A stretch of 64,000 nucleotides of DNA from Bacteroidetes bacterium GWA2_32_17 (GTDB lineage: Bacteria; Bacteroidota; Bacteroidia; Bacteroidales; GWA2-32-17). The position numbers and the translations under genes are program-made. Below, one piece after another: positions 6,286 to 60,782 of this stretch. The notes below the pieces were generated by a model. It was not told the DNA's origin. It did not search any database and saw only the letters and a program-made list of their open reading frames with translations. How positions within the stretch are numbered: position 1 is the stretch's first letter; each line of letters opens with the position of its first letter. The stretch spans positions 17 to 64,016 of the forward strand of contig MENF01000106.1 of the NCBI GenBank assembly GCA_001769035.1, read 5' to 3'.

Positions 6286-6296
6286 AATTATTTATA

Positions 6297-6725
6297 ATGA
6301 AAAAAATAACAACCTTAGCTATTGCAGCAATTTTAGCATTGGCATTAAATACAAATAAAACCATTGCTCAGGTAGATGTAACTACTGCTTTATGTACAAA
6401 ACATATAATATCGCCATACATATCTGACGGACAACAATATAAAGCACTATTAAATAGTGAAGAAATTGCTGAATTTCATTCAACTTTTTATGGTGGAACA
6501 ACATACAGAATAACTGGTGCAACAGGTCAAACTGAAGGAAATTTAATATTTTCGTTATACGATAAAGAACGTAACCTGCTTTTCACAAATCGCGATTATC
6601 AAAATTCAATTTATTGGGATTTTAAATTTATCTCTACTATTGATTGTATAATTGAAGCCGAACTTGATGCTGCAAGTAAAGCTAAATCTGGCTTTGTAAT
6701 TATGTTAATTGGCTTTAAACAATAA
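6297..6725 (+). CDS. Small secreted protein, function unknown
   Basis: Signal peptide MKKITTLAIAAILALALNTNKTIA. Starts 11 nt after the preceding gene. Confidence 0.4.
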   Translation: MKKITTLAIAAILALALNTNKTIAQVDVTTALCTKHIISPYISDGQQYKALLNSEEIAEFHSTFYGGTTYRITGATGQTEGNLIFSLYDKERNLLFTNRDYQNSIYWDFKFISTIDCIIEAELDAASKAKSGFVIMLIGFKQ

Positions 6726-6752
6726 TATTTTGTGTAAATAAAATTATTTTTT

Positions 6753-6786
6753 AAGAGGCATTATTTGCGTAATAATGCCTCTTTTA
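6753..6786 (+). terminator. Intrinsic terminator-like hairpin
   Basis: 13-bp stem aagaggcattatt/aataatgcctctt, loop tgcgt, followed by tttt. It overlaps the non-ATG 5' extension of the ABC ORF, which argues for the ATG at 6798. Confidence 0.6.
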
Positions 6787-6797
6787 GTAAAAAGAAA

Positions 6798-9700: not shown

Positions 9701-9902
9701 GGATTCGCATTTTTATGCACCACGTAAGAAAATTTTTGGGACTTATTTCGACACATTCTGGGTTAACATTATTATTATATGGTTAATGTCAATTTTGTTA
9801 TTTATAACTTTATATTATAACTTACTAAGAAAAACTCTTGAAATAGGCGATTGGGTTTCGGAAATAATGAAAAAAAGGAAAAAAATAAAAGCCAGTTTAT
9901 AG
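6798..9902 (+). CDS. ABC transporter, fused ATPase + ABC-2 type permease (ABCG-like) with a long N-terminal regulatory region
   Basis: Walker A GASGAGKTT, signature SGGQRKR, Walker B ILFLDEPT, C-terminal multi-TM region. Start moved to ATG 6798 because of the upstream terminator. Confidence 0.85.
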   Translation: MSERILKALMQLFAIIARPESNAEERRSVVGSFLLQQLNSELVNEYLKVFNNYYEQYQAKQSDSTLRKKRIAGSSVKVLKICTEINEELTQKQKVIVLVRLLEFIKSDSVEISEQELEFVETVADTFHIVSEEYVRLKAFVLYTFDEIPNSTRMLLVDSNDNFSHPKVKHLYRPNLQGQLRVFHVRMANMFLLKYLGERELYLNGQLIHLHKVYVLSNGSSIRSAKIAPIYYSDILSVFNEDKIKSKIVFEAKEVEFAFKGGGIGLHKMSFKEESGHLVGIMGASGAGKTTLLNVLNGSYEPTNGEITINDINIYSENKEIEGLIGYVSQDDLLIEDLTVFQNLYYNAKLCFDNLNHFQILRIVMKTLQNLGLYKIKDMKVGTPLNKKISGGQRKRLNIALELIREPSILFLDEPTSGLSSRDSENILDLLKELALKGKLVFVVIHQPSSDIFKMFDKLLILDTGGYLIYDGDPVDSIIYFKSRTHQANWSESECLTCGNVNPEQIFNIVEANVLDEYGNQTHTRKISPIEWLQRYDKHHITTNENNDKSSYKIPEIFFKVPGKIKQFKVFVIRDVLSKISNSQYLLINLLEAPLLSFILSFIIRYYNVDITNDSGYTFSENSNVPIFMFMSVIISIFVGLTVSAEEIFRDRKIRKREKYLNLSWGSYLFSKVFILTIISAIQAALFVAIGNSILEIHGMYWQYWLVLFSAWVFSNLLGLNISDAFNSAVTIYILIPFLVIPQLILSGIIVKFDKLNPDVSSPSHIPIYGQIITARWAYEALAVYQFRENKYEKQFYPYEKITCSANFKKDFWLRSLRNKVADVKRVLGIKEKQKDVIDDALLLLRNELSVETTLNKKVAFPVKINDLVYNKINDKTLDKLSLYFDELNKYYIQKFNKASEAKDRIYNKFQKNGKDKLKFIQLKKDYYNESLKEFVKNENEMNKIVEYNHHLYQKADPIFYDPQGGVLDSHFYAPRKKIFGTYFDTFWVNIIIIWLMSILLFITLYYNLLRKTLEIGDWVSEIMKKRKKIKASL

Positions 9903-10055
9903 TTTCAGGTTTATGGTTTAACCACAAACTATAAATATAAAACTAAAAAAGATATGAATCCAGAATGGAAAGATTTGAGTTTTGAGGTTGAAAATTGGTA
10001 GTGTTTCTTTAATGAAATGACAAGTCAAGCCCGCCATGACGTAGTAACTAGTATT

Positions 10056-10436
10056 TTATTCTTCTATTTCAATCATTTTAAAAGGAACTTTAATAATTGA
10101 TTGATAATCTTCACCAGCTTCAAGCATATCTTCATCATCTTCTTCGTAATACCAATTAATTACAATATTACTACCTGCTTTTGAAATATTTTCAAGTTTT
10201 TTGAAAATATCAAGAATACACTTTGATGAACTTGTATTAAAATATTCTAATTGAATATTTACGATTGTATTTGCTAGTGGAGCAGTTGCATAAGCTTCCA
10301 ACCATTCAACCAAAAGTCTGTAAAATTCAATCGAATTTTCGGGAATTGATCTTCCTTTAATTTCTATTTTACCAGCAACAGCATCAAAATTTATGCTGGG
10401 AGTTTTAGGTGTTCCTTCAATTACTATTGTATCCAT
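10056..10436 (-). CDS. DUF1987 / SiaC-like partner-switch phosphoprotein
   Basis: 126 aa. N-terminal IEGTPKTPSINFD...GKIEIKGRSIPEN pattern recalled for the SiaC family. Adjacent to a SiaB-like gene. Confidence 0.55.
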   Translation of the reverse strand: MDTIVIEGTPKTPSINFDAVAGKIEIKGRSIPENSIEFYRLLVEWLEAYATAPLANTIVNIQLEYFNTSSSKCILDIFKKLENISKAGSNIVINWYYEEDDEDMLEAGEDYQSIIKVPFKMIEIEE

Positions 10437-10464
10437 ATTTTTTTTTTTAGTGGTTAAAGATATG

Positions 10465-11013
10465 CTAAATTATTTTAATTTTCAAAATGTAAAAGTAAAT
10501 ATTTTTATTAATATTTAAAAATTGATACTCTAATTTGGTTCCAGTTTTACGTGAAACATCAATTAACCCGAGACCTCCGCCCTCTTTTTCGAGAAATTCA
10601 TCGTTGTTTAAAATTAATTTATAAAGTGCTTTTAATTCATCTTTTGATAAAGAATTTATTTGATTAATTCTATCGGTTAATATCTGAATCCTATCTTTTA
10701 ATATATAATTACCAGTAATTATGTTAATAGAATTTTCAAAATAATTCATTGCAAATATACCAAACTTTATATTTTTATCTGAAATTTTTAATGCATGATG
10801 AAAAATATTCTGAATACTTTCAACAAAAACATGAATTGTAATTTTCCTTAATTCTTTCAAATTCATATTCGTATTAAAATAAATTTCTAATTTTTCTATT
10901 AATGAAGTAATTATGTCGGAAGTAACTTCTCCTCTATAAGATAACAAATTATTTCCATCAATTAAAGTATTATACCAATTCTCAACTTCAATATTATTTA
11001 TCGTTTCTGTCAC
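10465..11013 (-). CDS. SiaB-like GHKL-type protein kinase
   Basis: 182 aa. C-terminal GGGLGLIDV ATP-lid-like motif. Gene pairing with the DUF1987 protein. Confidence 0.5.
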   Translation of the reverse strand: MTETINNIEVENWYNTLIDGNNLLSYRGEVTSDIITSLIEKLEIYFNTNMNLKELRKITIHVFVESIQNIFHHALKISDKNIKFGIFAMNYFENSINIITGNYILKDRIQILTDRINQINSLSKDELKALYKLILNNDEFLEKEGGGLGLIDVSRKTGTKLEYQFLNINKNIYFYILKIKII

Positions 11014-47926: not shown

Positions 47927-49987
47927 ATGAATTATATAAACAAAATATTAGTTACGGTAATATTATTTGTTGGGGTTTCATTTAACTCATATTCTCAGAA
48001 AATAACTATAAAAGACCGTATTAAAGCTGAGCATATATATAATTTTGGAGTTTATATAACATGGAAAAATAAGAGTCAATTAAAAGAATCAAAAAAATTT
48101 CAAATTGGTGTATATGGCTCAGATACAACCATGTACAGTTTATTAAAGAAAATTTGCAGTTATCGTTTGTTAAAATGGAAAAAAATTGAGATTGTACGGT
48201 TTAGCAAAATTAATGAAATTAAATATGTACCAATTCTTTACATAAGCAATTCGAGTAATAACGAAGTTCCGAAAATTGACTCAGTAATCAGCCAATGGTC
48301 AACATTACTTGTAACCGATAGTTGTAACACATTTAAAGGAACAATGATTAATTTTTTTCCACGCAATGCTTTAAAAAAAGTTGAAATTAACAAAGAAAAC
48401 ATTAATGCAAGAGGAATGAAAGTTGGAGCAATGCTATACGTTGTTGCTAAAAATTACGAAGCAGACTGGGAAACGATGTTCCAAAAAAGTGAAGAAGAAT
48501 TAGCAACTGAAAAAGAAACTGTTGAACAACAAAATATAATTTTAAAAGAACAGGAGAACAAAATAAAATTAAAAGAAGAACACATATTAAAATTAAGCAA
48601 CAATATTACAGAAAAAGAAAAAGAATTAAACTTTAAACAAGATGAACTTCACATATTGCAAAATGACATATTTAATAAAAACGAAGCACTTAACTTAACA
48701 TCTGCTATACTAAAAACACAACAATTAAAATTACTAATTCAACAAAAAGATATTAAAGAAACTCAAAAACTTTTACAAAAACAAATTGATGAATACAAAA
48801 TACAAAAATCAAAAATAGATAATCAAAGAACAGAAATTTCATCACAACAAACATTAATAGACAATCAAAAATCTAAATTAAACAGAAGTATTGCTGATTT
48901 AAAAAAGCAACAACTTGTTTTGTATTTTGTTTTAATTGTTTTGATTTTGTTCGGTTTAATGAGCGTTTTGATATATAGAAGTTATAGGATTAAAAAACGA
49001 GCTAACAAACTTTTAAAGTTAAGAAACAACGAAATTTCGAGACAAAATTCAGAAATCATTCAACAAAAAGAAGAGATTGAAACCCAACGCGACGAAATTG
49101 AAGCACAACGCGATTCTTTAGCAACACAGCGAGATAAAATTTTAGTTCAAAACAAAGATATTACCGACAGCATAACTTATGCAAGTAAAATACAACAAGC
49201 CCTTTTACCTCTCAACTTATTAACAAGTCAACTTTTTAACGAGCATTTTATTTTTTATCACCCACGAGATATTGTAAGCGGCGATTTTTATTGGACCCGA
49301 AAAAAAGGTGATATAATATACCTCGCCGTTGCCGATTGCACTGGTCATGGAGTTCCCGGTGCCTTTATGAGTATGCTTGGCGTAGCTTTTCTTAACGAAA
49401 TAATTGACAGATACAATTTACTTTCATCGGGCGAATTACTTGATAATCTTCGTGAAAAAATAATTTATTCGCTTCACCAAACCGAAAGCGATGAGAGTTC
49501 TAAAGATGGTATGGATATTTCGATTATTGGGTATAATGAAAAAACCAAAATTTTACAAATCTCCGGTGCAAATAATCCTGTTTATATAGTCAGCAGTAAG
49601 CAGTCGGCAGTAGGCAGTCAGCAGCCAGCAGTAAGCAGTGAAATGCACGAACTGCCTACTACAACTGCCTCCTGCCAACTTCTTGAATTAAAAGGCGATA
49701 AAATGCCCATAGGAATATATTATGGCGAAGAAAAGCCATTTTCAACAAAAGAAATAACAATTTACAAAAATGATTATATTTACATGTTTTCCGATGGCTT
49801 TGCCGACCAGTTTGGCGGACCAGATGGTAAAAAATTCAAATACAAAGCGTTAAAAAACTTATGTTTGCAAATAAGCAATTTAAAAAGTGAAGAACAGGAA
49901 GAAATTGTAAGAAAAGCATTTTTTGATTGGAAAAGAGATTACAAACAAGTTGATGATATTTTATTAATAGGTGTTAGATTTGAGTAA
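47927..49987 (+). CDS. Membrane PP2C (SpoIIE-type) phosphatase with an N-terminal YfiR-like periplasmic domain and coiled coil
   Basis: C-terminal ...SGDFYW...VADCTGHGVPGAFMSMLG...DGMD...FSDGFADQFGG...DDILLIGVRF. Confidence 0.75.
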   Translation: MNYINKILVTVILFVGVSFNSYSQKITIKDRIKAEHIYNFGVYITWKNKSQLKESKKFQIGVYGSDTTMYSLLKKICSYRLLKWKKIEIVRFSKINEIKYVPILYISNSSNNEVPKIDSVISQWSTLLVTDSCNTFKGTMINFFPRNALKKVEINKENINARGMKVGAMLYVVAKNYEADWETMFQKSEEELATEKETVEQQNIILKEQENKIKLKEEHILKLSNNITEKEKELNFKQDELHILQNDIFNKNEALNLTSAILKTQQLKLLIQQKDIKETQKLLQKQIDEYKIQKSKIDNQRTEISSQQTLIDNQKSKLNRSIADLKKQQLVLYFVLIVLILFGLMSVLIYRSYRIKKRANKLLKLRNNEISRQNSEIIQQKEEIETQRDEIEAQRDSLATQRDKILVQNKDITDSITYASKIQQALLPLNLLTSQLFNEHFIFYHPRDIVSGDFYWTRKKGDIIYLAVADCTGHGVPGAFMSMLGVAFLNEIIDRYNLLSSGELLDNLREKIIYSLHQTESDESSKDGMDISIIGYNEKTKILQISGANNPVYIVSSKQSAVGSQQPAVSSEMHELPTTTASCQLLELKGDKMPIGIYYGEEKPFSTKEITIYKNDYIYMFSDGFADQFGGPDGKKFKYKALKNLCLQISNLKSEEQEEIVRKAFFDWKRDYKQVDDILLIGVRFE
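49589..49684 (+). repeat. G+C-richer heptamer-periodic (cagtNNN) repeat embedded in-frame in the PP2C gene
   Basis: cagtaag/cagtcgg/cagtagg/cagtcag words, inverted repeat agtaagcagt...actgcctact. The same words occur intergenically at 12054-12072. Confidence 0.75.
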
Positions 49988-49989
49988 AA

Positions 49990-52230
49990 ATGGGCAGATT
50001 ATTTGGTCTTATTATATTTTGTTTTTTTAGCATACAATTATTCTCTCAAAAGAAAGATAAAACAACGTTAATAAAAAATATTAACAAAGAACATAATCCA
50101 ATTAAAAAAATCAATCTTATGATTGATTTAACATACAATTATTTGGATAGCGATACAACCAATTTTATTAAATTAATGAAAGATATTGAATCATATTCAA
50201 TATCAAATAATTATTTCAAAGGATTAGGAGAATATTATTACAGATTTGGCGATTACTATTACAAAAAAGGAAAATATAAAATTTCAATAACAAATTATAG
50301 AAAATCAATCCCGTATTTTCAAAAAATCTCAAATAAAAAACGAGTAGCCGATGCATTCACATGCATTGGCGTAAACTATAGCGAATTAACAATGTACAAC
50401 GATGCTATTGAACCCTATATTAATTCAGAAAAACTTTATCAAGAAATACACGATACAACCGGATTAATTCAATCTTTAATAAACCTAAGTGCTAATTACG
50501 ATGATATTAAATTAAACGAAAAAGCAAAAAAATATATTAATAAAGCATTAGAATTATCATTAAAACAAAAAGATTTTGAAAGTGCTGCATATTGTTATTT
50601 GAATTTAGGCATTTATGAAAAAAAAGAAGGCAATTTCGATAAAGCATTAGAAAACTATATTAAAGTAGAAACTTATTCTACGCAATGTTCGAATAATTAT
50701 TTACTTAGCCATGCATATGTAAATATTTCGAGTCTTTTTTTAGAAAAAAAAGAACCATATAAAGCATTGCAATTTGCTAACAAATATTTCAGATTAAATA
50801 TTAATTCTAAAGAACCAAGTATTCTTTATCAAATAAACTCTTTATTTGGAAAAGCAGAAGTAGATATTGGAAAATATTCCGAAGGAATAGTTCATTTGAA
50901 TAAAGCGTTTAATAATGCTAAAGAAATAAATACAGGCAATTTAATAATTAATGCATCAAGTAATTTAGCTGACGCATATAAAACAATTTCTAAATTCGAC
51001 AAAGCGTATTATTATATAGAATTAGCATACAACTACAGCGATTCTATATTTAGAGCAGATAATTTAAAACAAATAACAGAAGTTGAAACAAAATATCAAA
51101 CTGAAAAAAAAGAACATGAAATTGAAGTATTAAATAAAAACAAAAAACTTCAGACTCTTGAACTTGATAAAAAACAAAGAGAAATAAAGCAAAGAAATTT
51201 CATTATATACGGTATCGGATTAGTATTACTTATTATTATAGGATTCTCTGTAATGCTATACAATACATTACAACAAAAAAGAAAAGCAAATAAACTTTTA
51301 AATCAGAAGAATAATGAGATACAACAAAAAAACGAAGAAATATTATCGCAACGAGATGAAATTCAAGCACAAAGAGACGAAGTAATTTTACATCGCGATA
51401 AAATAGCATCGCAACAAAAGAAAATAACCGATAGTATTTTATACGCTAGTAGAATTCAAAACGCAGTATTACCACCACTCGAAAATATTAACATTTTACT
51501 TCCAGAACATTTTATTTTGTTTAAACCACGCGACATTGTTAGTGGCGATTTTTACTGGATTCAACAAATTAAAAACAGAACATATATTGCTGTTGCCGAT
51601 TGCACCGGGCATGGAGTGCCAGGAGCATTTATGAGCATGCTCGGAGTTGCATTTTTAAATGAAATTATTACTAAATTTAATAATCCTATAGCCGGAGATA
51701 TATTAAATCAATTAAGAATAAATGTTAAACGTTCGTTGCATCAAACCGGAAGAGTTGGTGAGCAAAAAGATGGAATGGATATTTCGTTATGTGTAATAGA
51801 TAAAGACAAAAATCAATTAGAGTTTTCGGGAGCTAATAATCCTTTATATATAGTCAGCAGTCAACAGTCGGTAGTCGGCAGTCAGCAATCGGACTGTGAA
51901 CTGAAGACTGAATACTGTGGACTAATTGAACTAAAAGGTGATAAAATGCCAATTGGTGTTTATACTACTGATGATAAACTATTTAATACTCAATATTATT
52001 CATATAATACCGGCGATACATTTTATATGTTTAGCGATGGTTATGCCGACCAATTTGGCGGTATAGACGGTAAAAAGTTTATGAAATCGAGATTTAAAAA
52101 GTTTTTGCTCGAAATAAATAATTTATCTGTAAACGAACAACAAAAACAATTAGAATATAATATTGAGCGATGGATGGGCAACAACGAACAGATTGACGAT
52201 ATTTTAGTAGTTGGTGTTCGATTTGTTTAA
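49990..52230 (+). CDS. Membrane PP2C (SpoIIE-type) phosphatase with an N-terminal TPR sensor region
   Basis: TPR-like repeats, one TM, coiled coil, and a C-terminal PP2C domain paralogous to the upstream gene. Confidence 0.75.
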   Translation: MGRLFGLIIFCFFSIQLFSQKKDKTTLIKNINKEHNPIKKINLMIDLTYNYLDSDTTNFIKLMKDIESYSISNNYFKGLGEYYYRFGDYYYKKGKYKISITNYRKSIPYFQKISNKKRVADAFTCIGVNYSELTMYNDAIEPYINSEKLYQEIHDTTGLIQSLINLSANYDDIKLNEKAKKYINKALELSLKQKDFESAAYCYLNLGIYEKKEGNFDKALENYIKVETYSTQCSNNYLLSHAYVNISSLFLEKKEPYKALQFANKYFRLNINSKEPSILYQINSLFGKAEVDIGKYSEGIVHLNKAFNNAKEINTGNLIINASSNLADAYKTISKFDKAYYYIELAYNYSDSIFRADNLKQITEVETKYQTEKKEHEIEVLNKNKKLQTLELDKKQREIKQRNFIIYGIGLVLLIIIGFSVMLYNTLQQKRKANKLLNQKNNEIQQKNEEILSQRDEIQAQRDEVILHRDKIASQQKKITDSILYASRIQNAVLPPLENINILLPEHFILFKPRDIVSGDFYWIQQIKNRTYIAVADCTGHGVPGAFMSMLGVAFLNEIITKFNNPIAGDILNQLRINVKRSLHQTGRVGEQKDGMDISLCVIDKDKNQLEFSGANNPLYIVSSQQSVVGSQQSDCELKTEYCGLIELKGDKMPIGVYTTDDKLFNTQYYSYNTGDTFYMFSDGYADQFGGIDGKKFMKSRFKKFLLEINNLSVNEQQKQLEYNIERWMGNNEQIDDILVVGVRFV
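51853..51922 (+). repeat. Heptamer-periodic (cagtNNN) repeat embedded in-frame in the second PP2C gene
   Basis: gtcagcagtcaacagtcggtagtcggcagtcagc, at the position homologous to the element in the first paralog. Confidence 0.7.
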
Positions 52231-54095: not shown

Positions 54096-54224
54096 GCTAA
54101 CGTTTGGTGCTTGGAAAAACTGGGCATTAAGCAGCAGGAAGTGTCAAACCGTTAAATATTTTATATTTTGTTGTCATTGTCAATTTGTACATGTCCGCCC
54201 AGTTTTAACAAACGTGTGTTAGCG
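54096..54224 (-). repeat. attC-like imperfect palindrome
   Basis: ctaac/gttag, cgtttg/caaacg and aaaactgggc/gcccagtttt arms with asymmetric bulges. Same family as 18094-18227. Confidence 0.55.
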
Positions 54225-54230
54225 TTTAGG

Positions 54231-54420
54231 CCGTTATTTCGTTGTTTAATGTTCCGAAGTGTCAAATTTGCAGCAATGTCATTTAGCCCGTGTGTCAGAG
54301 CGGGACGGGCTGGAAGGCTCTTTGGCAAAATTTGGCTAATACGAGAGTTTGTGTGTTTTGCCAATGTGCTTGACAGCGTAAGGAAGGGAGCGTTGATTTG
54401 TTCATTTTCCTGCTTCAATT
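54231..54420. repeat. Related palindromic repeat segment
   Basis: aatgttccgaagtgtcaaatttgcagcaatgtca resembles the attC-family left arm. Hairpins agcccgt...acgggct and ttggcaaaa...ttttgccaa. Confidence 0.4.
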
Positions 54421-54589
54421 ATTTTTTTGTCCATTTTTTACACTTCTTAGTGTAAACATATTTTAGGACAAGACAATACGTACTAAATCTGCAAAATGTT
54501 ATAAGACGTTTTTCTTTTGTTTATTGCGTCTGTCATAGCAAATTTAATTTTTGCCATACTTATGTATGCACAAGTTTATTAATAGAATA

Positions 54590-54754
54590 TCATTCATTTG
54601 ATGTAGGTGGCGGAGGTGGAGGCGGTGGGGCACTTTCCTTTTGAGGAGAAGGCGGTGGAGGTGGTGGTTGAGAATCCCTCATTGGTTTTGTTTGTGCTTT
54701 CTCAATACCTTCATTTAAAGGTTTTACTTTAGGTATTTGATTTTCTTCTTCCAT
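54590..54754 (-). CDS. Possible 54-aa proline-rich micro-protein (below the ORF-track cutoff)
   Basis: ATG at 54754, TGA at 54592-54590. MEEENQIPKVKPLNEGIEKAQTKPMRDSQPPPPPPSPQKESAPPPPPPPPTSNE. Starts 17 nt after the upstream stop. Confidence 0.3.
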   Translation of the reverse strand: MEEENQIPKVKPLNEGIEKAQTKPMRDSQPPPPPPSPQKESAPPPPPPPPTSNE

Positions 54755-54771
54755 TGTTTGAATTTATTTAG

Positions 54772-55410
54772 TTAATATTTCGGTACTTCAATAATAATAT
54801 CTCTATTGCAAAAATTTAAATAAACTTCATCTATTTTATACAATTCTTTACTATCTGAATAATTGTAAACTGTAACTTTTCTTAATGATAACTCTTTATT
54901 ATTTTCATCTTCTGCCCACGAATCTACTTGACCAAGATAAGTCAGCCCATTTTTAATATCTCTTATGTAAACCCAATCAACATTATTTCTATTAAGATAA
55001 TGATAATAAAGGCTATCATCTCCGAATTTATTAGACACTTTTAATGCTTGTGCAATTTTAAAAATTCTCTTACTTTGAATAATATAAGAAATTATATACT
55101 CAATAATTAAAGAAAGTGGTAAACAAAATAAAATTTCAATTAAATGAACATCATTATCTTTTTTTATTATTGCATCCCATATATGTAAATTTTTAAATAC
55201 AAAATCGTCTTTACAAACCTGAAATAATTGAATTAGCCAATAAAGCAGTTGTAAAATAACAAAAGATATTATACCAAGTAAAATAGAACTAATAATAAAC
55301 CTAAAAGGAGTCCATTTCTTATGAATTGTTATTGATTCAACTATTAAGGTTGAAATAATTCATGGAATTAAGATTATTATTAATCTTATTGTAAAGTCAG
55401 TGTATTCCAT
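54772..55410 (-). pseudogene. Multi-TM protein gene with a single in-frame TGA at codon 17
   Basis: ATG 55410 and the ORF-track ORF 55038-54772 are in the same frame (372 nt apart). The only stop between them is TGA at 55362-55360, and there is no ATG/GTG/TTG between that TGA and 55038. Confidence 0.55.
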
Positions 55411-55441: not shown

Positions 55442-56440
55442 TTAATGCTTCTTTGCTCGTTTCGAGATTAAATAGAATACAACAATACCAGCTATTACCA
55501 GTATAGGTCCTATCCAAATCGCATTGTATTTCAAGAACTGAAGAGCTATAGGATTACCTGTTATAGTAAGAATCAGCCCAATGAAAACAAATAGTAGTGT
55601 TCCTCCACCAATTAACCATCTATTTTGGATTGCATTAATTTCAGATGACAAGGTATCCTTAATACTTCCAGAAATACTCTGTGAAAGCTGATTAGATTTT
55701 CCATCTAAATCAGTTACTTTGGTAGTCAACTTCTCAATGGAATCATAAATAGCCCCATATTCATTAGATACATTTTTTAATTCAAGATCAATGGCTTTAA
55801 GTTTTTGTCCTAAAATATTCCAAGGATAACCAGACTTTATAAGACCTTCAAGAAGAACCTCTGGACCTCCATCTACTAATGAATTTTCCCATTCTTCTTC
55901 TTTCATTCCAACAGGTGCCCCACCACGCTTTGAACGGATATAACCTGTTTCACCTTGATAATTTCCATCGTAGACACTTTCGGGCCTTTCGTCTTTCTCT
56001 AACTTAAAAATTACAAGACGGAATATTCTTTCCTTAAACACAAACCTGCGCTCTTCGCTTGAAGTATTTGTGATGGTCCAATTCAAAGTTCCATGATAAC
56101 CTGAATCAACATGAGTGGTTGCAGCAACTATGCCCTCACGAGAAAGGTCAGTTGTTGGGCTGACAATTGCATGTAAATCGATATTTGGAAATATTTTTTC
56201 AACAGTTTCTCTGCTAAAATCTAATATCTCGAAAGCAGTTAACGCAACGGAATGACCAGGGGGAACTTTAATTCCCTTTTTCTTCTTTCCAAGTTCAAAT
56301 TCTTTATTTGCATTTAAGAATTCACCAACTTCTCCTAACCTAAGTATATACGAATTCGGTCTCACCGATGTAATGTCCCCGTTAATAATAACTGAACCAA
56401 GTAATTTCTTTATCTCATGGTCGGAAATTAAAGTAGCCAT
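55442..56440 (-). CDS. dCTP deaminase/dUTPase-fold domain protein with a coiled coil and two C-terminal TM helices
   Basis: Dcd-like motif order: LISDHEI, SYILRLG, PGHSVALTAFE, DLSREG, VDSGYHGTLNWTITN, RIFRLVIFKL, YDGNYQGE. C-terminal helices LIGGGTLLFVFIGLILTITG and IWIGPILVIAGIVVFYLI. Confidence 0.6.
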   Translation of the reverse strand: MATLISDHEIKKLLGSVIINGDITSVRPNSYILRLGEVGEFLNANKEFELGKKKKGIKVPPGHSVALTAFEILDFSRETVEKIFPNIDLHAIVSPTTDLSREGIVAATTHVDSGYHGTLNWTITNTSSEERRFVFKERIFRLVIFKLEKDERPESVYDGNYQGETGYIRSKRGGAPVGMKEEEWENSLVDGGPEVLLEGLIKSGYPWNILGQKLKAIDLELKNVSNEYGAIYDSIEKLTTKVTDLDGKSNQLSQSISGSIKDTLSSEINAIQNRWLIGGGTLLFVFIGLILTITGNPIALQFLKYNAIWIGPILVIAGIVVFYLISKRAKKH

Positions 56441-56511: not shown

Positions 56512-56895
56512 TTACCCCTCTACAATTTTTATTTCCTCTTCCGCTAAATCATAAATTCTATTGTAAAACCAATCATGATTGTTATTTACGATCATTCTTT
56601 CGAATGAAGTTATTTTTTTGTTTTTATTAAATTTTTTTATAATCGTATAGAGGTGTTTGTAGTTTGAATAATTTTTCAATGCGGTGTTAACCTGGTCTTT
56701 CCATAAATTAATCAGTTGAATATGATTTGTTGTTTTTTTTTGAACAGCAAATTTGTACATCTTCTCAAGGTTATGCAATAATTTCTCCATTTGCTTTTCG
56801 GTTTTATTTTGGCATAACCATTCAACATACTTGTTTTTATTAAGTATGTTATCATTTATTTTTTCCTGAATTTCAATATCTGTTCTTATTTTCAT
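56512..56895 (-). CDS. Small ORF translationally coupled to the R-M gene
   Basis: ATGA start/stop overlap with the upstream gene. C-terminus NRIYDLAEEEIKIVEG echoes the R-M C-terminus IVYQLYDLTEDEIKIIEEK. Confidence 0.4.
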   Translation of the reverse strand: MKIRTDIEIQEKINDNILNKNKYVEWLCQNKTEKQMEKLLHNLEKMYKFAVQKKTTNHIQLINLWKDQVNTALKNYSNYKHLYTIIKKFNKNKKITSFERMIVNNNHDWFYNRIYDLAEEEIKIVEG

Positions 56896-59654
56896 TTCTC
56901 CTCAATTATTTTAATTTCATCCTCTGTTAAATCGTAGAGTTGATACACGATTTCATTTATTCTGTTTTCGCAATAATCAATTTTACCTTGATTTTGCGAC
57001 ACTTTTGATTGTAGTTTTATTTCTTGTAGTTCAATATTTAATTTCAAAATTTGTTCAACTAACTTTTCAATTTCATTTTGTATTTCCTTATTTGCAGTAG
57101 CAATTGGAAGTTGTTCTAATTGTCCCATTAGAATTTGCGGAAATCCTTGTGAATTTGTTACAAGCCGTTTAGATAAATAAAATGAAAGAAATTTTGAGTT
57201 AAGTAATCCTAAAAGAAATTTAAGATTTATTTTATTACTACGTAAAATATATAAAGTGCTTTCGATTAGTTCTTGTTTGTCAGAATATGTAGCACATAAA
57301 CTGCTTCCTGTTCTTCGAATTAGCAAACGAGGAATAGTAGTTTGTTTTTTATAATCTCTTGTGCCTCCTATAATTTCTAATTTTTCATATTCTGCATATC
57401 TGTCATAATAATAACTATATCGTTTCATACAATTACCTAAAAGAAATGGCAAAGATTTTTTTGTTGGAGTTTGCGTTAGTATATCATTGCGATTTTTTAC
57501 AACCATGCCTTTTGACATTTCAACTAATTCGCCCATAAGTTTTGAGGAACTTAAAATTTTCTTGAAAAATAGTTTACTTGAATCGTCAAAGGAAACATCC
57601 CAAGATTCAAGACTTTTGTTTAATTTAATTTCTTGAATTACTTTTTGTTGTTGAGTTGTGTCGATTTTTACAATTTTAGTTTTCTCTTTTGAGTTCTTTT
57701 CGCCAACTATAATTGTTGTTCCAATAGTTGCGTCTTGAAAAACAAAATGGTCAAACGTTACAATGGAATTAAGATTAAAATTCTCTAAAATAATTTCTCT
57801 GATTTTTCCGTTACTGTCAGTTGTTAATAATGCTTCTGGAGTAATAAAAGAAAATATTTTGGGCGAAAGTTTAGAAACTTTTTCTAAAAATAACTGGAAT
57901 AGATTTTTTGAACTACCACCCGAGTAAGAATTAAAATTATTTTGGTAATAGGAAAGTAAATCAGCATCGCTGTTACTTATGGTAAGTTTTAAATATGGCG
58001 GATTTCCGATCACACAATCAAACCCACCTTGCTTAAAAATATTAGGAAATCCGTTATGCCAGTTAAATGGCTTTATTTTTTTCTCATCACCATAATCTAA
58101 TTGGTTACTATAAAAATCTGTACCAACTAAGCTATTCCCACATTTAATATTTTCGTCAAGTGTTGGTAAAACTCTTTCGTTAAACAATTTAAACTGATAA
58201 TTAATAGAAGCATTTGTTTCGCCTTCCATACATTTAAGCAATAATGAGAGCTTTGTTACTTCAACTGCGTTTACATCTATATCAACTCCGAAAATATTGT
58301 TGAGTAAAATTCTTTTCTTTTCCGCCGTTGTTAAATATCCTTCAGGTGTTAAAGTATTTTCCTTTTTTACTTTTGATGGCTTGCCATTATTAGAATAATA
58401 ATTTTTATGAAAGTCAAGCAAATACTGATAAGCACCAATTAAAAAACTACCACTGCCGCAGGCAGGGTCAACTATTTTTATTTTGCTTATTTCTTTTGGT
58501 GTTCTTCCCTCTATTAGTTTACCGACTGTGTTTTTTACGATGTATTCAACTACATATTGAGGCGTGTAATAAACTCCTCCGGCTTTTCTTACTTCGGGTT
58601 TTTCTTCAATTTTTGCATGATGTGCTTTGTCAATGGAAATGGTTTTTCCCAAAAATTGTTCGTAAGCACTGCCTAAAATTTCAACCGATAAAACAGAAAA
58701 TTCATAAGGACTTTCGGGATAATATAATTCGCTAACAATTGTCTTTATAATTTTATTTTCAATTTTTAAATTCTTGCTTATTTTATCTTTTTTTAAGTCA
58801 AAAATTCCTGAATTGTATTTGTCGTCTGCTTCCTGAAATATTTTAAAAAGATTTTGGTAATAATCACCTTGTTTTAATGCCGTTTTTAAATTTCCATAAA
58901 CCTCTACACTTCTGGCCTCTGCAATTCGTAAAAAAATTATTCTATCAATTGTTTGTTGAACAGCAAAATTAATTTCATCTTCGTCAAGGCCTTTATTATT
59001 CCAACTTATAGAAGTAGCTAAATAAGTTCTCCATTTGTCAAGCGATTGTAAAAACTCTTTGTCAACGGTAGCTGTACCTTTTTTATTTGCAGAGTTTTGT
59101 AAAAACTTATCGAAACTTCCTTTTAATACATGTTCTTTTGAAAAAGTCTCCCAAATAAAGTCAAACTTATTAAGATAATCTTTATAAGTAAAATATTCAA
59201 TTCGGGCAACTGATGCTTTGTCTGTAGGGTTTGGCTTTTTTGAACAATCATAAATTGAGAACTCTTCAAAGTCGGTGATTATGCTTATTGCTAATTTTGC
59301 ATTCCATCCGTAGCGTCTGACCTGATATGCAGGATGAATATCATCTTTAATTGCAACACTTGGTTTTTTTGCTTCAACAAAAAATAATCTTTTTCCTCCA
59401 CCAATTCTAAATGAATAGTCGGGTGCTTTTGTTGCTCCTGCAATTTTTATTTTGTCTTCGTGAATTACTTCTCTGTATGATTCTGCATAATCTTGTTCAT
59501 TGTCAATGTCCCAACCAAGTGTCTTAAAGAACGGGTCAATGAAGTCTCGCCTTGTTTGAGTTTCGTTATAATCGCTGTTTTTATATTCGTTGATATGAAA
59601 GTCAAAACGTTGAACTAATTTTTCGATTTCTATTTTTGCTTGTTCTTTAGTCAT
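56892..59654 (-). CDS. Type IIG (Eco57I/MmeI-like) fused restriction endonuclease-N6-adenine methyltransferase
   Basis: N-terminal PD-(D/E)xK-like PDYSF...FFVEAKK, SAM motif VDPACGSGSFL, catalytic NPPY, C-terminal specificity-like domain. 920 aa. Confidence 0.85.
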   Translation of the reverse strand: MTKEQAKIEIEKLVQRFDFHINEYKNSDYNETQTRRDFIDPFFKTLGWDIDNEQDYAESYREVIHEDKIKIAGATKAPDYSFRIGGGKRLFFVEAKKPSVAIKDDIHPAYQVRRYGWNAKLAISIITDFEEFSIYDCSKKPNPTDKASVARIEYFTYKDYLNKFDFIWETFSKEHVLKGSFDKFLQNSANKKGTATVDKEFLQSLDKWRTYLATSISWNNKGLDEDEINFAVQQTIDRIIFLRIAEARSVEVYGNLKTALKQGDYYQNLFKIFQEADDKYNSGIFDLKKDKISKNLKIENKIIKTIVSELYYPESPYEFSVLSVEILGSAYEQFLGKTISIDKAHHAKIEEKPEVRKAGGVYYTPQYVVEYIVKNTVGKLIEGRTPKEISKIKIVDPACGSGSFLIGAYQYLLDFHKNYYSNNGKPSKVKKENTLTPEGYLTTAEKKRILLNNIFGVDIDVNAVEVTKLSLLLKCMEGETNASINYQFKLFNERVLPTLDENIKCGNSLVGTDFYSNQLDYGDEKKIKPFNWHNGFPNIFKQGGFDCVIGNPPYLKLTISNSDADLLSYYQNNFNSYSGGSSKNLFQLFLEKVSKLSPKIFSFITPEALLTTDSNGKIREIILENFNLNSIVTFDHFVFQDATIGTTIIVGEKNSKEKTKIVKIDTTQQQKVIQEIKLNKSLESWDVSFDDSSKLFFKKILSSSKLMGELVEMSKGMVVKNRNDILTQTPTKKSLPFLLGNCMKRYSYYYDRYAEYEKLEIIGGTRDYKKQTTIPRLLIRRTGSSLCATYSDKQELIESTLYILRSNKINLKFLLGLLNSKFLSFYLSKRLVTNSQGFPQILMGQLEQLPIATANKEIQNEIEKLVEQILKLNIELQEIKLQSKVSQNQGKIDYCENRINEIVYQLYDLTEDEIKIIEEK

Positions 59655-60145: not shown

Positions 60146-60454
60146 TTAGAATTGTAGTGATAGTTTCAAATGCCCACCAAGTCCTTGTTGAATTATTTTC
60201 ATTAATGTAGAAAGTCTGATGTCGCTAGCATTGTTCTCGATGCGTGAAATATAAGATTTATTAGTTCCGCATTTTTCAGCAAGTTCTTCTTGAGTCATGC
60301 CTAGTTTAATTCTTGCTTCTTCAAGAAGAACACCAAGTCTAAATGCTTCAAATTCTTGTTCCCATTCTTCACGCTTTTTAACTCCTCGTTTTCCATATTT
60401 TTTGTCAAGGAGTTCGTCCAATGATGTTAGATTTTTATTTGCTTTATTTTTCAT
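60146..60454 (-). CDS. XRE-family HTH antitoxin (HigA-like)
   Basis: 102 aa. HTH segment MTQEELAEKCGTNKSYISRIENN. Overlaps the toxin gene by 11 nt. Confidence 0.8.
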   Translation of the reverse strand: MKNKANKNLTSLDELLDKKYGKRGVKKREEWEQEFEAFRLGVLLEEARIKLGMTQEELAEKCGTNKSYISRIENNASDIRLSTLMKIIQQGLGGHLKLSLQF

Positions 60455-60782
60455 TGCTATATTCCTCCATTATTTTAAGTGCTCGTTCGATTTCTCGTTT
60501 TGGTGTTTTTTGTGTTTTCTTTTGAAATGCATTTCCGAGAACAACTAGATTCCCTTTGTCAAAGAATGAAAATATTCTATAAATATTCCCACCAACTTCA
60601 ACTCTTACTTCATATAGTCCCTTTTTGCTTTCAATATGTTTAAAATATTTTTCAGGTACTTGCCTTGTTACTCTAATTAAATTTAATGTCCACTCAATTT
60701 TAGCCTGAACACTGTCTGTCTGTTCAGTATAAAAGTCTAGAAAATAGTTTTTATAAGCTACTACTTGTCTTACGAGATTCAT
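60444..60782 (-). CDS. RelE/ParE-superfamily toxin (HigB / Gp49-like)
   Basis: 112 aa. ...GLYEVRVEVGGNIYRIFSFFDKGNLVVLGNAFQKKTQKTP pattern. Toxin-first gene order. Confidence 0.75.
   Translation of the reverse strand: MNLVRQVVAYKNYFLDFYTEQTDSVQAKIEWTLNLIRVTRQVPEKYFKHIESKKGLYEVRVEVGGNIYRIFSFFDKGNLVVLGNAFQKKTQKTPKREIERALKIMEEYSNEK

What the first reader, a model, noticed from the sequence alone, without database searches (positions are those of the whole stretch)
55442..56440. dCTP-deaminase/dUTPase-fold domain fused to a coiled coil and two C-terminal TM helices
The first ~170 aa follow the Dcd/Dut beta-barrel motif order (SYILRLG, PGHSVALTAFE, DLSREG, VDSGYHGTLNWTITN, YDGNYQGE).

In my by-eye alignment to E. 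coli Dcd (recalled from memory), the catalytic Glu of LEFYN aligns with Thr in WTITN. The domain may therefore bind nucleotides rather than deaminate them.

Housekeeping Dcd/Dut are soluble. Here the domain is tethered to the membrane and sits next to an R-M enzyme. Known nucleotide-depletion defences use zinc cytidine deaminases or dGTPases, not this fold. That makes this a plausible new sensor or effector type.
Basis: partly seen in the sequence, partly recalled or inferred. Interest (0 to 1): 0.8.

Follow-up and report, generated by a model that had tools for sequence, protein, structure and literature searches.

The report
Membrane-anchored dUTPase-fold protein, likely defence gene
This gene encodes a nucleotide-binding domain of the dUTPase/dCTP-deaminase fold joined to a coiled-coil stalk and two membrane helices; it belongs to a conserved, horizontally spread, uncharacterised family that often sits near restriction systems and mobile elements, so it may be a new single-gene phage-defence protein.

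Summary
Window 55442-56440 (-) encodes a 332-aa protein with three parts. Residues 1-170 have a Dcd/dUTPase fold; the model superposes on archaeal dUTPases (Foldseek TM 0.8-0.89). Residues about 208-272 form a heptad coiled coil. Two hydrophobic helices follow (about 275-297 and 306-327), then a basic tail.

E. coli Dcd Glu138 does align with Thr122, so dCTP deamination is excluded. Monofunctional dUTPases also lack this Glu, so catalysis is not excluded. The general-base Asp, the sugar-gating Tyr and a motif-V-like arm are invariant. The motif-2 phosphate site has changed (R/K-S-S to T-T-D), and the motif-4 Gln is Arg.

The protein belongs to a closed family: at least 400 full-length homologues, 50-68% identical across 12 or more phyla, all from uncultured bacteria. 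No neighbouring gene is conserved. The family has no PADLOC hit and I found no paper describing it.

Contexts are variable. They often include R-M systems, CBASS, AbiE, toxin-antitoxin pairs, integrases or recombinases. In one phage contig the gene sits between terminase and portal.

Best reading: a stand-alone conflict or defence gene that couples pyrimidine-dNTP binding or hydrolysis by a trimeric head to a membrane hairpin. The defence role and the mechanism are inferred, not shown.

The parts
55442..56440 (-). Complete gene: 332-aa membrane-anchored Dcd/dUTPase-fold protein
   Evidence: ORF. At least 401 homologues, the 120 listed nearly all full length. AF2 model mean pLDDT 84.
55991..56440 (-). 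Residues 1-150: Dcd/dUTPase beta-barrel core. Motif 2 is T96-T97-D98-L-S-R101. Motif 3 is V-D112-S-G-Y115-H-G-T-L-N120-W121-T122. Motif 4 is E137-R-I-F-R141.
   Evidence: Profile, PDB and Foldseek matches. Residue mapping against E. coli Dcd and Dut and archaeal dUTPases. Invariance across 110-133 homologues.
55901..55990 (-). Residues 151-180: C-terminal arm (Y157-x-G-x-Y161-Q162 ... G166-Y167-x-R-S170-x-R172-x-G-x-P-x-G-M). It corresponds to the lid, or motif V, of dUTPases.
   Evidence: Aligns with E. coli Dut 'RGEGGFGHSGR' and Thermococcus 'YQGS..LSKR'. Mean conservation 0.78.
55820..55900 (-). Residues 181-207: family-specific conserved linker (W184, P193-E194, L197, L200, S-G-Y205-P206-W207)
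   Evidence: Invariant or near-invariant columns. Short helix 193-202 in the AF2 models. No match outside the family.
55625..55819 (-). Residues 208-272: heptad coiled-coil stalk. The N-terminal third is conserved; the middle varies in sequence and length.
   Evidence: 3-4 hydrophobic spacing and a peak at period 3.5-3.6. Continuous helix 207-295. Length variants in relatives.
55550..55624 (-). Residues 273-297: invariant juxtamembrane motif (L-Q272-N-R274-W275) and TM helix 1 (G288 invariant)
   Evidence: Kyte-Doolittle up to 2.27. Conservation 0.80 for residues 269-276.
55526..55549 (-). Residues 298-305: short periplasmic loop (F302 conserved)
55460..55525 (-). Residues 306-327: TM helix 2 (G311 invariant)
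   Evidence: Kyte-Doolittle up to 2.58. Helix 297-328.
55442..55459 (-). Residues 328-332 (KRAKKH-type basic tail) and stop codon. The tail implies an N-in/C-in topology with the nucleotide-binding head in the cytoplasm.
   Evidence: Sequence. A basic tail is present in all aligned homologues. The topology follows from the positive-inside rule and is an inference.
56892..59654 (-). Context: Type IIG restriction-modification enzyme (920 aa). Not a conserved partner of the family.
   Evidence: PADLOC REase_MTase_IIG 1.1e-188; Pfam Eco57I, N6_Mtase, TaqI_C, HSDR_N. No conserved neighbour across 45 loci.
56512..56895 (-). Context: 127-aa ORF of unknown function between the R-M gene and the target. 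Its ATG overlaps the R-M stop codon.
   Evidence: No family hit in four libraries.
60146..60782 (-). Context: HigB-like (Gp49) / HigA-like (HTH_3) toxin-antitoxin pair
   Evidence: Pfam Gp49 2.5e-20 and HTH_3 2.8e-14.

Best explanation
What it is (well supported): a stand-alone, horizontally mobile gene for an inner-membrane protein. Its cytoplasmic head is a Dcd/dUTPase-fold domain, which is a homotrimer in all known relatives. The head is joined to a C-terminal two-helix membrane hairpin by a conserved linker and a coiled-coil stalk.

How it most likely works (inferred): it is a single-gene conflict or anti-phage module.
- The three inter-subunit pockets bind a pyrimidine 2'-deoxynucleoside triphosphate.
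- They cannot deaminate it, because Glu is replaced by Thr.
- They may hydrolyse it.
- The family-specific, near-invariant N120-W121-T122 and T-T-D motifs suggest a specificity different from housekeeping dUTP or dCTP. Candidates are dUTP or a 5-substituted dNTP made by phages, or an altered dCTP/dTTP pool.

Nucleotide occupancy orders the motif-V-like C-terminal arm, as in dUTPases. Here that arm runs directly into the conserved linker, the trimeric stalk and the invariant LQNRW juxtamembrane motif. The nucleotide state of the head is thereby coupled to the packing or oligomerisation of the six TM helices. The proposed outcome is membrane permeabilisation and growth arrest of the infected cell (abortive infection).
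For: - Fold and pocket residues. D112, G114, G117, W121 and R141 are invariant. R101, T118-N120, T122, Y157, Y161, Q162, Y167 and S170 are at least 90% conserved in 110 homologues.
- The arm leads directly into the linker, coiled coil and TM helices.
- The TM part is more than a generic anchor. LQNRW, G288 and G311 are near-invariant.
- The architecture is closed. It is kept even in 30-39%-identical subclades.
- No conserved neighbouring gene in 45 loci.
- The distribution is patchy: 45 of 185,579 species representatives, at least 12 phyla, 50-68% identity. This implies horizontal transfer.
- Ten Pfam-annotated contexts:
  - window: Type IIG R-M plus HigBA-like pair;
  - an ICE-like element with a serine recombinase and a T4SS coupling protein;
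  - AbiE plus toxin-antitoxin pairs plus a transposase;
  - two integrases plus a Type I R-M system;
  - IS elements plus serine recombinases;
  - CBASS (SMODS plus HNH-SAVED);
  - an adjacent N6_N4 methyltransferase;
  - DUF1016/RAMA;
  - an HNH/SNase islet;
  - one locus with only a lone antitoxin-family gene about 3 kb away.

- PADLOC hits among the +-2 neighbours include a CBASS cyclase, E2, AbiEii, PbeA, a Type IV REase and methyltransferases.
- In the one phage contig the gene lies between terminase large subunit and portal, a typical moron position.
- Precedent from my own knowledge: phage trimeric dUTPases act as nucleotide-dependent switches through motif V (PDB 3zez; its title appears).
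Against: - There are no experimental data, and no homologue comes from a cultured organism.
- Defence association is only semi-quantitative. A small marker set finds R-M, defence, TA or MGE genes within 8 kb in 12 of 45 GTDB loci. Many neighbours are housekeeping genes (UvrB, LeuRS, ThyA, DNA polymerase A). Genes 5-8 kb away carry as many PADLOC hits as the nearest genes.
- The stalk middle is poorly conserved (0.41). It varies by -4 residues, by complete loss (P0189, P0214) and by a tandem-repeat expansion of about 100 residues (L036). This fits a flexible tether better than a rigid signal-transmitting rod.
- The TM helices are only about 50% conserved.
- The C-terminal module is not shared with other sensor domains. 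The module shuffling typical of defence effectors is therefore absent.
- The trimeric state and the ligand were not tested.
Confidence: 0.4

Rival explanations
1. Membrane-tethered dNTP pyrophosphatase. The head is an active dUTPase-type hydrolase and is itself the effector. It would remove dUTP, dCTP or a phage-specific modified dNTP, by nucleotide depletion or 'sanitising'. The coiled coil and TM hairpin would serve only to trimerise, localise or regulate it, possibly responding to membrane perturbation.
For: - The head, arm and linker are the most conserved parts (0.75-0.78), against about 0.5 for the TM helices and 0.41 for the stalk middle.
- The dUTPase general-base Asp, the Tyr gate, the motif-4 Arg138 and a motif-V-like arm are retained.
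- The nearest solved relatives are active dUTPases.
- Variable stalk length fits a tether.
- Frequent adjacency to R-M systems would fit an enzyme aimed at phages that escape restriction by base modification. This last point is an inference.
Against: - The motif-2 phosphate-binding R/K-S-S is replaced by T-T-D, with the Asp at least 90% conserved, and the motif-4 Gln by Arg. Catalytic competence is therefore uncertain.
- The described nucleotide-depletion defences have other domain types and no TM segment is reported for them (the rest is my own knowledge).
- The invariant LQNRW, G288 and G311 are unexplained by a passive anchor.
Confidence: 0.25
2. An accessory membrane protein of mobile elements with a non-defence role. 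Examples would be entry or superinfection exclusion at the membrane, element maintenance or addiction, or an unknown envelope-linked function. The Dcd-like head would be a regulatory nucleotide-binding module.
For: - Found within an ICE-like region, IS- and recombinase-rich regions and a phage morphogenesis module.
- No match to any PADLOC model.
- No conserved partner gene.
Against: - Absent from 72,556 plasmids and 50,697 phage genomes, and found in 1 of 2.9 million viral contigs. It is therefore not a typical MGE core or maintenance gene.
- Many copies are chromosomal, next to housekeeping genes and without MGE markers.
Confidence: 0.2
3. An ordinary housekeeping dCTP deaminase or dUTPase that happens to be membrane-anchored, as the automatic JGI annotation 'deoxycytidine triphosphate deaminase' implies.
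For: - JGI names several members 'deoxycytidine triphosphate deaminase'.
- The fold and several pocket residues are shared.
Against: - The catalytic Glu138 equivalent is Thr, at least 90% conserved.
- Scores are far below the equivalog cut-offs: TIGR02274 44.9 against 92.8, NF002598 25.9 against 130.
- It is present in only 45 of 185,579 species representatives, in unrelated phyla and at variable loci. That is incompatible with a core metabolic enzyme.
Confidence: 0.05

Closest known systems
Archaeal-type (Dcd-like) monofunctional dUTPases: S. tokodaii 2yzj/2zdc, Thermococcus pacificus 8y1w, 'P45' 9ln0
   Same: - Best sequence and structure matches (E=1e-10 to 5e-15; target TM-score 0.80-0.89).
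- Same motif 3 (V/I-D-x-G-Y/W-x-G), with no deaminase Glu.
- Same Y-x-G-x-Y-Q-G C-terminal arm.
   Different: - Those enzymes are soluble proteins of about 155-170 aa that end after the arm.
- This protein continues for 160 more residues: linker, coiled coil and two TM helices.
- Motif 2 K/R-S-S/T is T-T-D here, and motif 4 Gln is Arg.
- The base-pocket strand is N-W-T instead of T-L-M or N-V-A.
- Only 20-27% identity.
Bacterial dCTP deaminase Dcd and bifunctional DCD-DUT: E. coli 1xs1, M. tuberculosis 2qxx, M. jannaschii 1ogh
   Same: Same fold (Foldseek E=1e-8 to 1e-11). Arg115 = R101 and Asp128 = D112.
   Different: - Catalytic Glu138 becomes Thr122.
- R110, S111, S112 become T96, T97, D98.
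- The E. coli-specific insertion is missing, and the protein is membrane-anchored.
- It is not a dCTP deaminase.
Nucleotide-depletion defences: defensive dCTP deaminase / AvcD, and dGTPases
   Same: The nucleotide-metabolism theme, single-gene organisation and location near R-M and TA genes (for the comparison; for this locus).
   Different: - Those use a zinc-dependent cytidine-deaminase domain plus a kinase or P-loop domain, or an HD-domain dGTPase. The first part is; the HD-domain statement is from my own knowledge.
- Unrelated folds, with no TM segment described.
- No PADLOC hit for this protein.
Ligand-gated membrane effectors of signalling defence systems: CBASS 2TM/Cap15-type, Pycsar PycTM, type III CRISPR Cam1/Chp1-type
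   Same: The general design of a cytoplasmic nucleotide-binding domain fused to a few TM helices that are proposed to disrupt the membrane. This is from my own knowledge; Chp1 is described in bioRxiv 10.64898/2026.08.05.743128, listed.
   Different: - Those depend on a partner cyclase or Cas10 that makes the signal. Here there is no conserved partner.
- The sensor fold (Dcd/dUTPase) has not been described in that role in any paper I found.
Phage trimeric dUTPases acting as signalling switches (staphylococcal phage 80alpha / phi11 Dut, PDB 3zez, 5cco)
   Same: The dUTPase fold used for signalling, with the nucleotide-dependent ordering of C-terminal motif V as the switch. These are weak structural matches; the mechanism is from my own knowledge of Tormo-Mas et al. 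2013.
   Different: Those are soluble enzymes that signal by binding a repressor. Here the arm is covalently continued into a membrane-anchored stalk.

Membership tests
dUTPase/Dcd superfamily (trimeric beta-barrel fold; Pfam PF22769 DCD) | Significant profile match | tested here: inconclusive
   - PF22769: 26.6 bits, against a gathering score of 27 (E=7e-6).
- Several homologues carry a precomputed PF22769 hit.
- TIGR02274 E=1e-11.
- Family profile against PDB 2yzj: 5e-15.
dUTPase/Dcd superfamily (trimeric beta-barrel fold; Pfam PF22769 DCD) | Three-dimensional fold | tested here: met
   AF2 pLDDT above 90 for residues 1-170. Foldseek finds 79 PDB hits with E<=1e-3, and those listed are all Dcd or dUTPases, with target TM-score up to 0.89 and rmsd 2.2 A. 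BFVD hits are likewise Dcd/dUTPases.
dUTPase/Dcd superfamily (trimeric beta-barrel fold; Pfam PF22769 DCD) | Motif 3 Asp followed by an aromatic deoxyribose gate (D-x-x-Y/W) | tested here: met
   V-D112-S-G-Y115 aligns with Dut I-D90-S-D-Y93 and Dcd I-D128-P-G-W131. D112 is invariant.
dUTPase/Dcd superfamily (trimeric beta-barrel fold; Pfam PF22769 DCD) | Homotrimer with active sites between subunits | not testable with these tools
   Only single-chain prediction was available. A trimeric coiled coil is compatible with the heptad pattern but was not shown.
dCTP deaminase (Dcd, TIGR02274 equivalog) | Catalytic Glu (E. coli Glu138) | tested here: not met
   Thr122 at this position, at least 90% conserved as Thr across the family.
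dCTP deaminase (Dcd, TIGR02274 equivalog) | Score above the curated equivalog cut-off | tested here: not met
   44.9 bits against a cut-off of 92.8.
Monofunctional Dcd-like dUTPase (NF002598 / PRK02253) | Score above the curated cut-off | tested here: not met
   25.9 bits against a cut-off of 130.
Monofunctional Dcd-like dUTPase (NF002598 / PRK02253) | Motif 2 basic residue plus Ser (R/K-S-S/T) and motif 4 Arg...Gln that hold the triphosphate | tested here: not met
   T96-T97-D98 replaces R/K-S-S/T. E-R138-x-x-R141 replaces E-R-x-x-Q. These substitutions are conserved family-wide.
Monofunctional Dcd-like dUTPase (NF002598 / PRK02253) | dUTP hydrolysis activity | not testable with these tools
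   Requires an enzyme assay.
Known nucleotide-depletion defence genes (defensive dCTP deaminase / AvcD, dGTPase) | Zinc-dependent cytidine-deaminase or HD dGTPase domain; match to defence-system HMMs | tested here: not met
   No PADLOC family at E<=0.1. The only Pfam hit is DCD.
Signal-gated TM effectors (CBASS, Pycsar, type III CRISPR) | Conserved operon partner that synthesises the nucleotide signal | tested here: not met
   No gene cluster is shared by more than 3 of the 45 loci, and those shared reflect local synteny (NmrA-like, UvrB, MatE). CBASS is adjacent in only one or two loci.
Signal-gated TM effectors (CBASS, Pycsar, type III CRISPR) | Nucleotide-binding domain fused to TM helices | tested here: met
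   Dcd/dUTPase-fold head plus two TM helices. This is architecture only. Ligand-gated membrane disruption was not tested.
Defence-island gene (guilt by association) | Homologues enriched next to known defence genes relative to genome background | tested here: inconclusive
   - 8-9 of 10 Pfam-annotated contexts contain R-M, defence, TA or MGE genes.
- 12 of 45 GTDB loci are positive with a small marker set.
- No genome-wide background could be computed.
- Distal flanks carry defence hits as well.

The most novel reading that the evidence does not exclude
The family is a new type of single-protein abortive-infection system. A trimeric dUTPase-fold head acts as a direct sensor of the infected cell's pyrimidine dNTP pool. 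The signal could be dUTP, 5-hydroxymethyl-dCTP or -dUTP, or loss of dCTP. The head gates its own six-helix membrane pore through the motif-V arm and the coiled-coil stalk. That would be immune sensing of a phage-made metabolite, without any signalling partner and by a fold not previously linked to immunity.
Probability: 0.25. Interest if true: 0.85.

Novelty: new variant of a known kind. Interest (0 to 1): 0.62.

Why it matters
If the family is defensive, it would add the dUTPase/Dcd fold to the repertoire of immune sensor or effector domains. It would also give an example of a self-contained nucleotide-responsive membrane protein with no separate signal generator.

It could reveal how bacteria detect or counter phages that rewire pyrimidine dNTP pools or use modified bases. 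Such phages escape the restriction systems that this gene often accompanies.

Even if it is not defensive, it corrects a recurring automatic annotation. 'Deoxycytidine triphosphate deaminase' is assigned to proteins that lack the deaminase Glu. The work also defines a conserved, phylogenetically widespread family that is unnamed in Pfam, NCBIfam and PADLOC and is restricted so far to uncultured bacteria.

Tried and rejected
- **Conserved partner gene.** All ORFs in 45 genome loci (+-8 kb) were clustered. No neighbour is shared beyond local synteny. An operon-level system was rejected.
- **Shuffling of the C-terminal module.** A profile of residues 167-332 was searched against 1.84 billion representative proteins. 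It returned only the same family, gene fragments and spurious long coiled-coil proteins. There was one odd protein (P0151) with a non-Dcd N-terminus. A shared effector module was rejected.
- **Known defence models.** PADLOC gave nothing for the target, for the 127-aa ORF or for the 88-aa ORF.
- **Phage and plasmid carriage.** No tblastn hit in INPHARED or PLSDB. One IMG/VR contig was found.
- **Literature.** Four full-text searches on dCTP-deaminase-like or dUTPase domains, membrane and defence found no description of this architecture. The only related item is a passing mention of an unvalidated 'dUTPase' domain among DefensePredictor candidates. A search for the Thermococcus dUTPase structure paper found nothing usable.
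- **Proximal versus distal PADLOC comparison as an enrichment test.** It was uninformative. Distal genes also include R-M components, and the tool reports family counts, not per-protein calls.
- **RNA genes as an integration landmark.** No tRNA, tmRNA or Rfam hit in 45-64 kb.
- **Promoter and terminator scan.** Counts were not above the shuffled expectation, so no operon claim is made.
- **Whole-chain structural matches.** Foldseek on the full model found no match beyond the head domain.
Full report
**1. The observation**

It is a real gene. A search of 5.8 billion protein clusters returned 401 homologues. The 120 listed are nearly all full length (about 325-340 aa), at 54-68% identity to the query. 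A scan of one genome per species (185,579 species) found 45 loci.

**2. The N-terminal domain**

Sequence profiles point to the Dcd/dUTPase superfamily, but below the family-specific thresholds:
- Pfam PF22769 'dCTP deaminase-like': 26.6 bits, against a gathering score of 27.
- TIGR02274: 44.9 bits against 92.8. Archaeal-type dUTPase NF002598: 25.9 against 130.
- phrog_1663 'dCTP deaminase': E=7e-12.

Among solved structures, the best sequence matches are S. tokodaii dUTPase 2yzj (1e-10; 5e-15 with the family profile) and the Thermococcus dUTPases 8y1w and 9ln0.

AlphaFold2 with 110 homologues gives pLDDT 89-96 for residues 1-170. An earlier model built from 22 homologues was searched with Foldseek. 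It recovers those same archaeal dUTPases first (target TM-score 0.80-0.89, rmsd 2.2-3.4 A), then the bifunctional DCD-DUT enzymes and E. coli Dcd. A viral structure library gives only Dcd/dUTPase domains. The fold assignment is secure.

**3. Active-site reading**

I aligned the window protein and two homologues with the real E. coli Dcd and Dut sequences (taken from NC_000913) and with the archaeal dUTPase segments printed. The roles attributed to individual Dcd and Dut residues rest on my knowledge of the published enzymology, not on a tool result.

Retained:
- Asp112 corresponds to Dut Asp90 and Dcd Asp128, the general base and 3'-OH ligand.
- Tyr115 corresponds to Dut Tyr93 and Dcd Trp131, the deoxyribose gate.
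- Arg101 corresponds to Dcd Arg115.
- Arg138 corresponds to Dut motif-4 Arg116.
- The C-terminal arm Y157-x-G-x-Y161-Q162-G-x-x-G166-Y167-x-R-S170-x-R172 lines up with Dut motif V (R-G-x-x-G-F-G-x-S-G-R) and with the archaeal 'YQGS...SKR'.

Changed:
- Dcd Glu138 is Thr122. It is Ser in Dut, Met in Thermococcus and Ala in S. tokodaii.
- The motif-2 triad R/K-S-S/T is T96-T97-D98.
- The motif-4 Gln is Arg141.
- The pocket strand reads N120-W121-T122.

All of these positions are invariant or at least 90% conserved in 110 homologues.

It does not by itself argue against catalysis, because monofunctional dUTPases of this fold also lack the Glu. The altered phosphate-binding motif and the family-specific N-W-T strand argue for a ligand or chemistry different from housekeeping dUTP hydrolysis. 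That last point is an inference.

**4. The C-terminal half**

After the arm comes a linker found only in this family: W184, P193-E194, L197, L200 and S-G-Y205-P206-W207. It is as conserved as the enzyme core (0.75 against 0.78).

Residues 208-272 show a clean 3-4 hydrophobic spacing across the family, with a spectral peak at 3.5-3.6 residues. They are modelled as one helix that continues through TM1 (207-295).

Two segments exceed Kyte-Doolittle 2.2 (275-294 and 307-325). They are separated by a loop of about 10 residues and followed by KRAKKH. By the positive-inside rule the head and the tail are cytoplasmic. This is an inference.

The juxtamembrane L-Q-N-R-W motif, G288 and G311 are near-invariant. 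The TM helices as a whole are about 50% conserved, and the stalk middle only 41%.

Stalk length is not fixed:
- Some members lack 4 residues.
- P0189, P0173 and P0214 have lost most or all of the stalk.
- L036 carries about seven tandem 17-residue repeats.

**5. Family, distribution and architecture**

A profile of the C-terminal 166 residues was searched against 1.84 billion representative proteins. It found 95 hits. These are the same architecture, gene fragments or unrelated giant coiled-coil proteins, plus a single protein with another N-terminus. A 30%-identical Kiritimatiellae subclade has about 14 members with the same layout. The architecture is therefore closed and ancient within the family.

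Members occur in many lineages, all as metagenome-assembled genomes:
- Bacteroidota, Verrucomicrobiota, Methylomirabilota, Hydrogenedentota, Sumerlaeota;
- Planctomycetota, Acidobacteriota, Desulfobacterota, Binatia, Kiritimatiellae;
- Alpha- and Gammaproteobacteria.

Identity of 50-68% across phyla, together with a presence in 0.02% of species, indicates horizontal spread. Public names are 'hypothetical protein' (NCBI) or 'deoxycytidine triphosphate deaminase' (JGI).

**6. Genomic context**

No neighbouring gene is conserved. The few recurrent neighbours are lineage-specific synteny: an NmrA-like protein, UvrB and MatE in Pseudomonadales, and HsdR in two loci.

In the window the gene follows a Type IIG R-M gene and a 127-aa ORF. 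A HigB/HigA-like pair lies upstream of these.

The other Pfam-annotated contexts are:

| Homologue | Neighbourhood |
|---|---|
| P0024 | ICE-like region: serine recombinase, T4SS coupling protein, Phage_rep_O family genes |
| P0038 | Islet with RNase H, HNH-AP2 and SNase genes |
| P0067 | A largely housekeeping locus |
| P0082 | AbiE, CopG, ParE/Phd and a transposase |
| P0060 | Two integrases and a Type I R-M system |
| P0118 | IS elements and two serine recombinases |
| P0106 | CBASS (SMODS plus HNH-SAVED) with a LexA-like repressor |
| P0026 | An adjacent N6_N4 methyltransferase |
| P0054 | DUF1016 and RAMA |

PADLOC hits among the nearest two genes on each side in the GTDB loci include an oligonucleotide cyclase, E2, AbiEii, PbeA, a Type IV REase and several methyltransferases. 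The same set also contains DNA polymerase A, ThyA, LeuRS and similar housekeeping genes.

A small marker set found R-M, defence, TA or MGE genes within 8 kb in 12 of 45 loci. This is a lower bound. A distal control set (5-8 kb away) also contains R-M genes. I therefore cannot state an enrichment factor.

The gene is absent from 50,697 phage genomes and 72,556 plasmids. The single IMG/VR contig carries it between the terminase large subunit and the portal gene, a classic moron position.

**7. Interpretation**

The following are shown:
- a real, conserved gene;
- a Dcd/dUTPase-fold head with an intact deoxynucleotide-type pocket but no deaminase Glu;
- a coiled coil and two TM helices;
- stand-alone, patchy and horizontally transferred distribution;
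- frequent but not universal company of defence genes and mobile elements.

The following are inferred:
- the trimeric state;
- the cytoplasmic orientation of the head;
- the dNTP ligand;
- a role in conflict or defence.

My preferred mechanism is that nucleotide occupancy orders the motif-V-like arm. The arm is covalently continuous with the conserved linker, the stalk and the LQNRW motif. Nucleotide state would therefore control the packing or oligomerisation of the TM hairpins and lead to membrane damage in infected cells.

The main rival is a membrane-tethered dNTP pyrophosphatase whose head is itself the effector. The greater conservation of the head and the variable stalk favour this rival. 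I cannot separate the two computationally.

**8. Comparison with what is known, and novelty**

The protein is not a dCTP deaminase, because a defining residue is absent. It does not meet the curated thresholds or the motif-2 and motif-4 signatures of dUTPases. It is unrelated in fold to the published nucleotide-depletion defences.

It resembles ligand-gated TM effectors in design, but it lacks their signal-generating partner. Full-text searches found no description of this architecture. One paper lists an unvalidated 'dUTPase' domain among machine-learning defence candidates, without detail.

I classify it as a new variant of a known kind, the single-gene sensor or enzyme plus TM modules. Confidence in the description is high. 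Confidence in the defence role is moderate, at about 0.5-0.6. Confidence in the specific mechanism is low to moderate.

Noticed in passing
window 54772-55410 (-): The ORF 31 nt downstream of the target starts at the ATG at 55410. It runs 16 codons, hits an in-frame TGA at 55362-55360, then stays open for about 196 codons to the stop at 54772. The N-terminal part is hydrophobic, with two TM-like stretches. ORF callers report only the 88-aa tail from the GTG at 55038. It may be a nonsense-mutated pseudogene or a recoding site. No family hit was found for the tail.
   Followed up: partly
window 56512-56895 (-): A 127-aa ORF whose ATG overlaps the stop codon of the Type IIG R-M gene (ATGA), which suggests translational coupling. 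It has no hit in Pfam, PADLOC, NCBIfam or PHROGs, and no relative next to the Dcd-TM gene in other loci.
   Followed up: partly
window 60146-60782 (-): A HigB-like (Gp49/DUF891) and HigA-like (HTH_3) toxin-antitoxin pair with overlapping genes, upstream of the R-M gene. With the R-M gene and the target it forms a small defence-type islet between a glycosyltransferase gene and DUF5606/SpoIIE genes.
   Followed up: partly
window 54160-54455: A locally GC-richer patch with overlapping ORFs of 85 and 95 aa on opposite strands and odd amino-acid composition. There is no tRNA or Rfam match. It may be a remnant of a degraded gene.
   Followed up: partly
window about 54592-54757 (-): A small 54-aa ORF encoding two polyproline runs (PPPPPPSP...PPPPPPPP). 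It is called as a gene in the public contig (L046 11687-11851).
   Followed up: no
window 47927-52230 (+): Two tandem paralogous membrane proteins (686 and 746 aa). Each has a coiled-coil region, one TM helix and a C-terminal SpoIIE/PP2C phosphatase domain. One has DUF4154 and the other has TPR repeats at the N-terminus.
   Followed up: no
L036 7746-9332: A Binatia homologue in which the coiled-coil stalk is expanded by about seven tandem copies of a 17-residue unit (MRGVVREELAQGAVTEQ). It shows that stalk length is not constrained.
   Followed up: partly
L053 7950-8975: The only viral-contig copy of the family. It lies between the terminase large subunit (5642-7567) and portal (9279-10922) genes of a tailed phage, which is a moron-type insertion.
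   Followed up: yes
L015, L040, L043, L044 (about 8001-9000): In several long-read MAG chromosomes the family gene is split into two ORFs. These may be frameshifted pseudogenes or homopolymer sequencing errors. This was not resolved.
   Followed up: no
P0151 (282 aa): A single protein that carries the family's C-terminal coiled coil and 2-TM module behind an unrelated, partly hydrophobic N-terminus instead of the Dcd-like head. It is either a rare domain swap or an assembly chimera.
   Followed up: no
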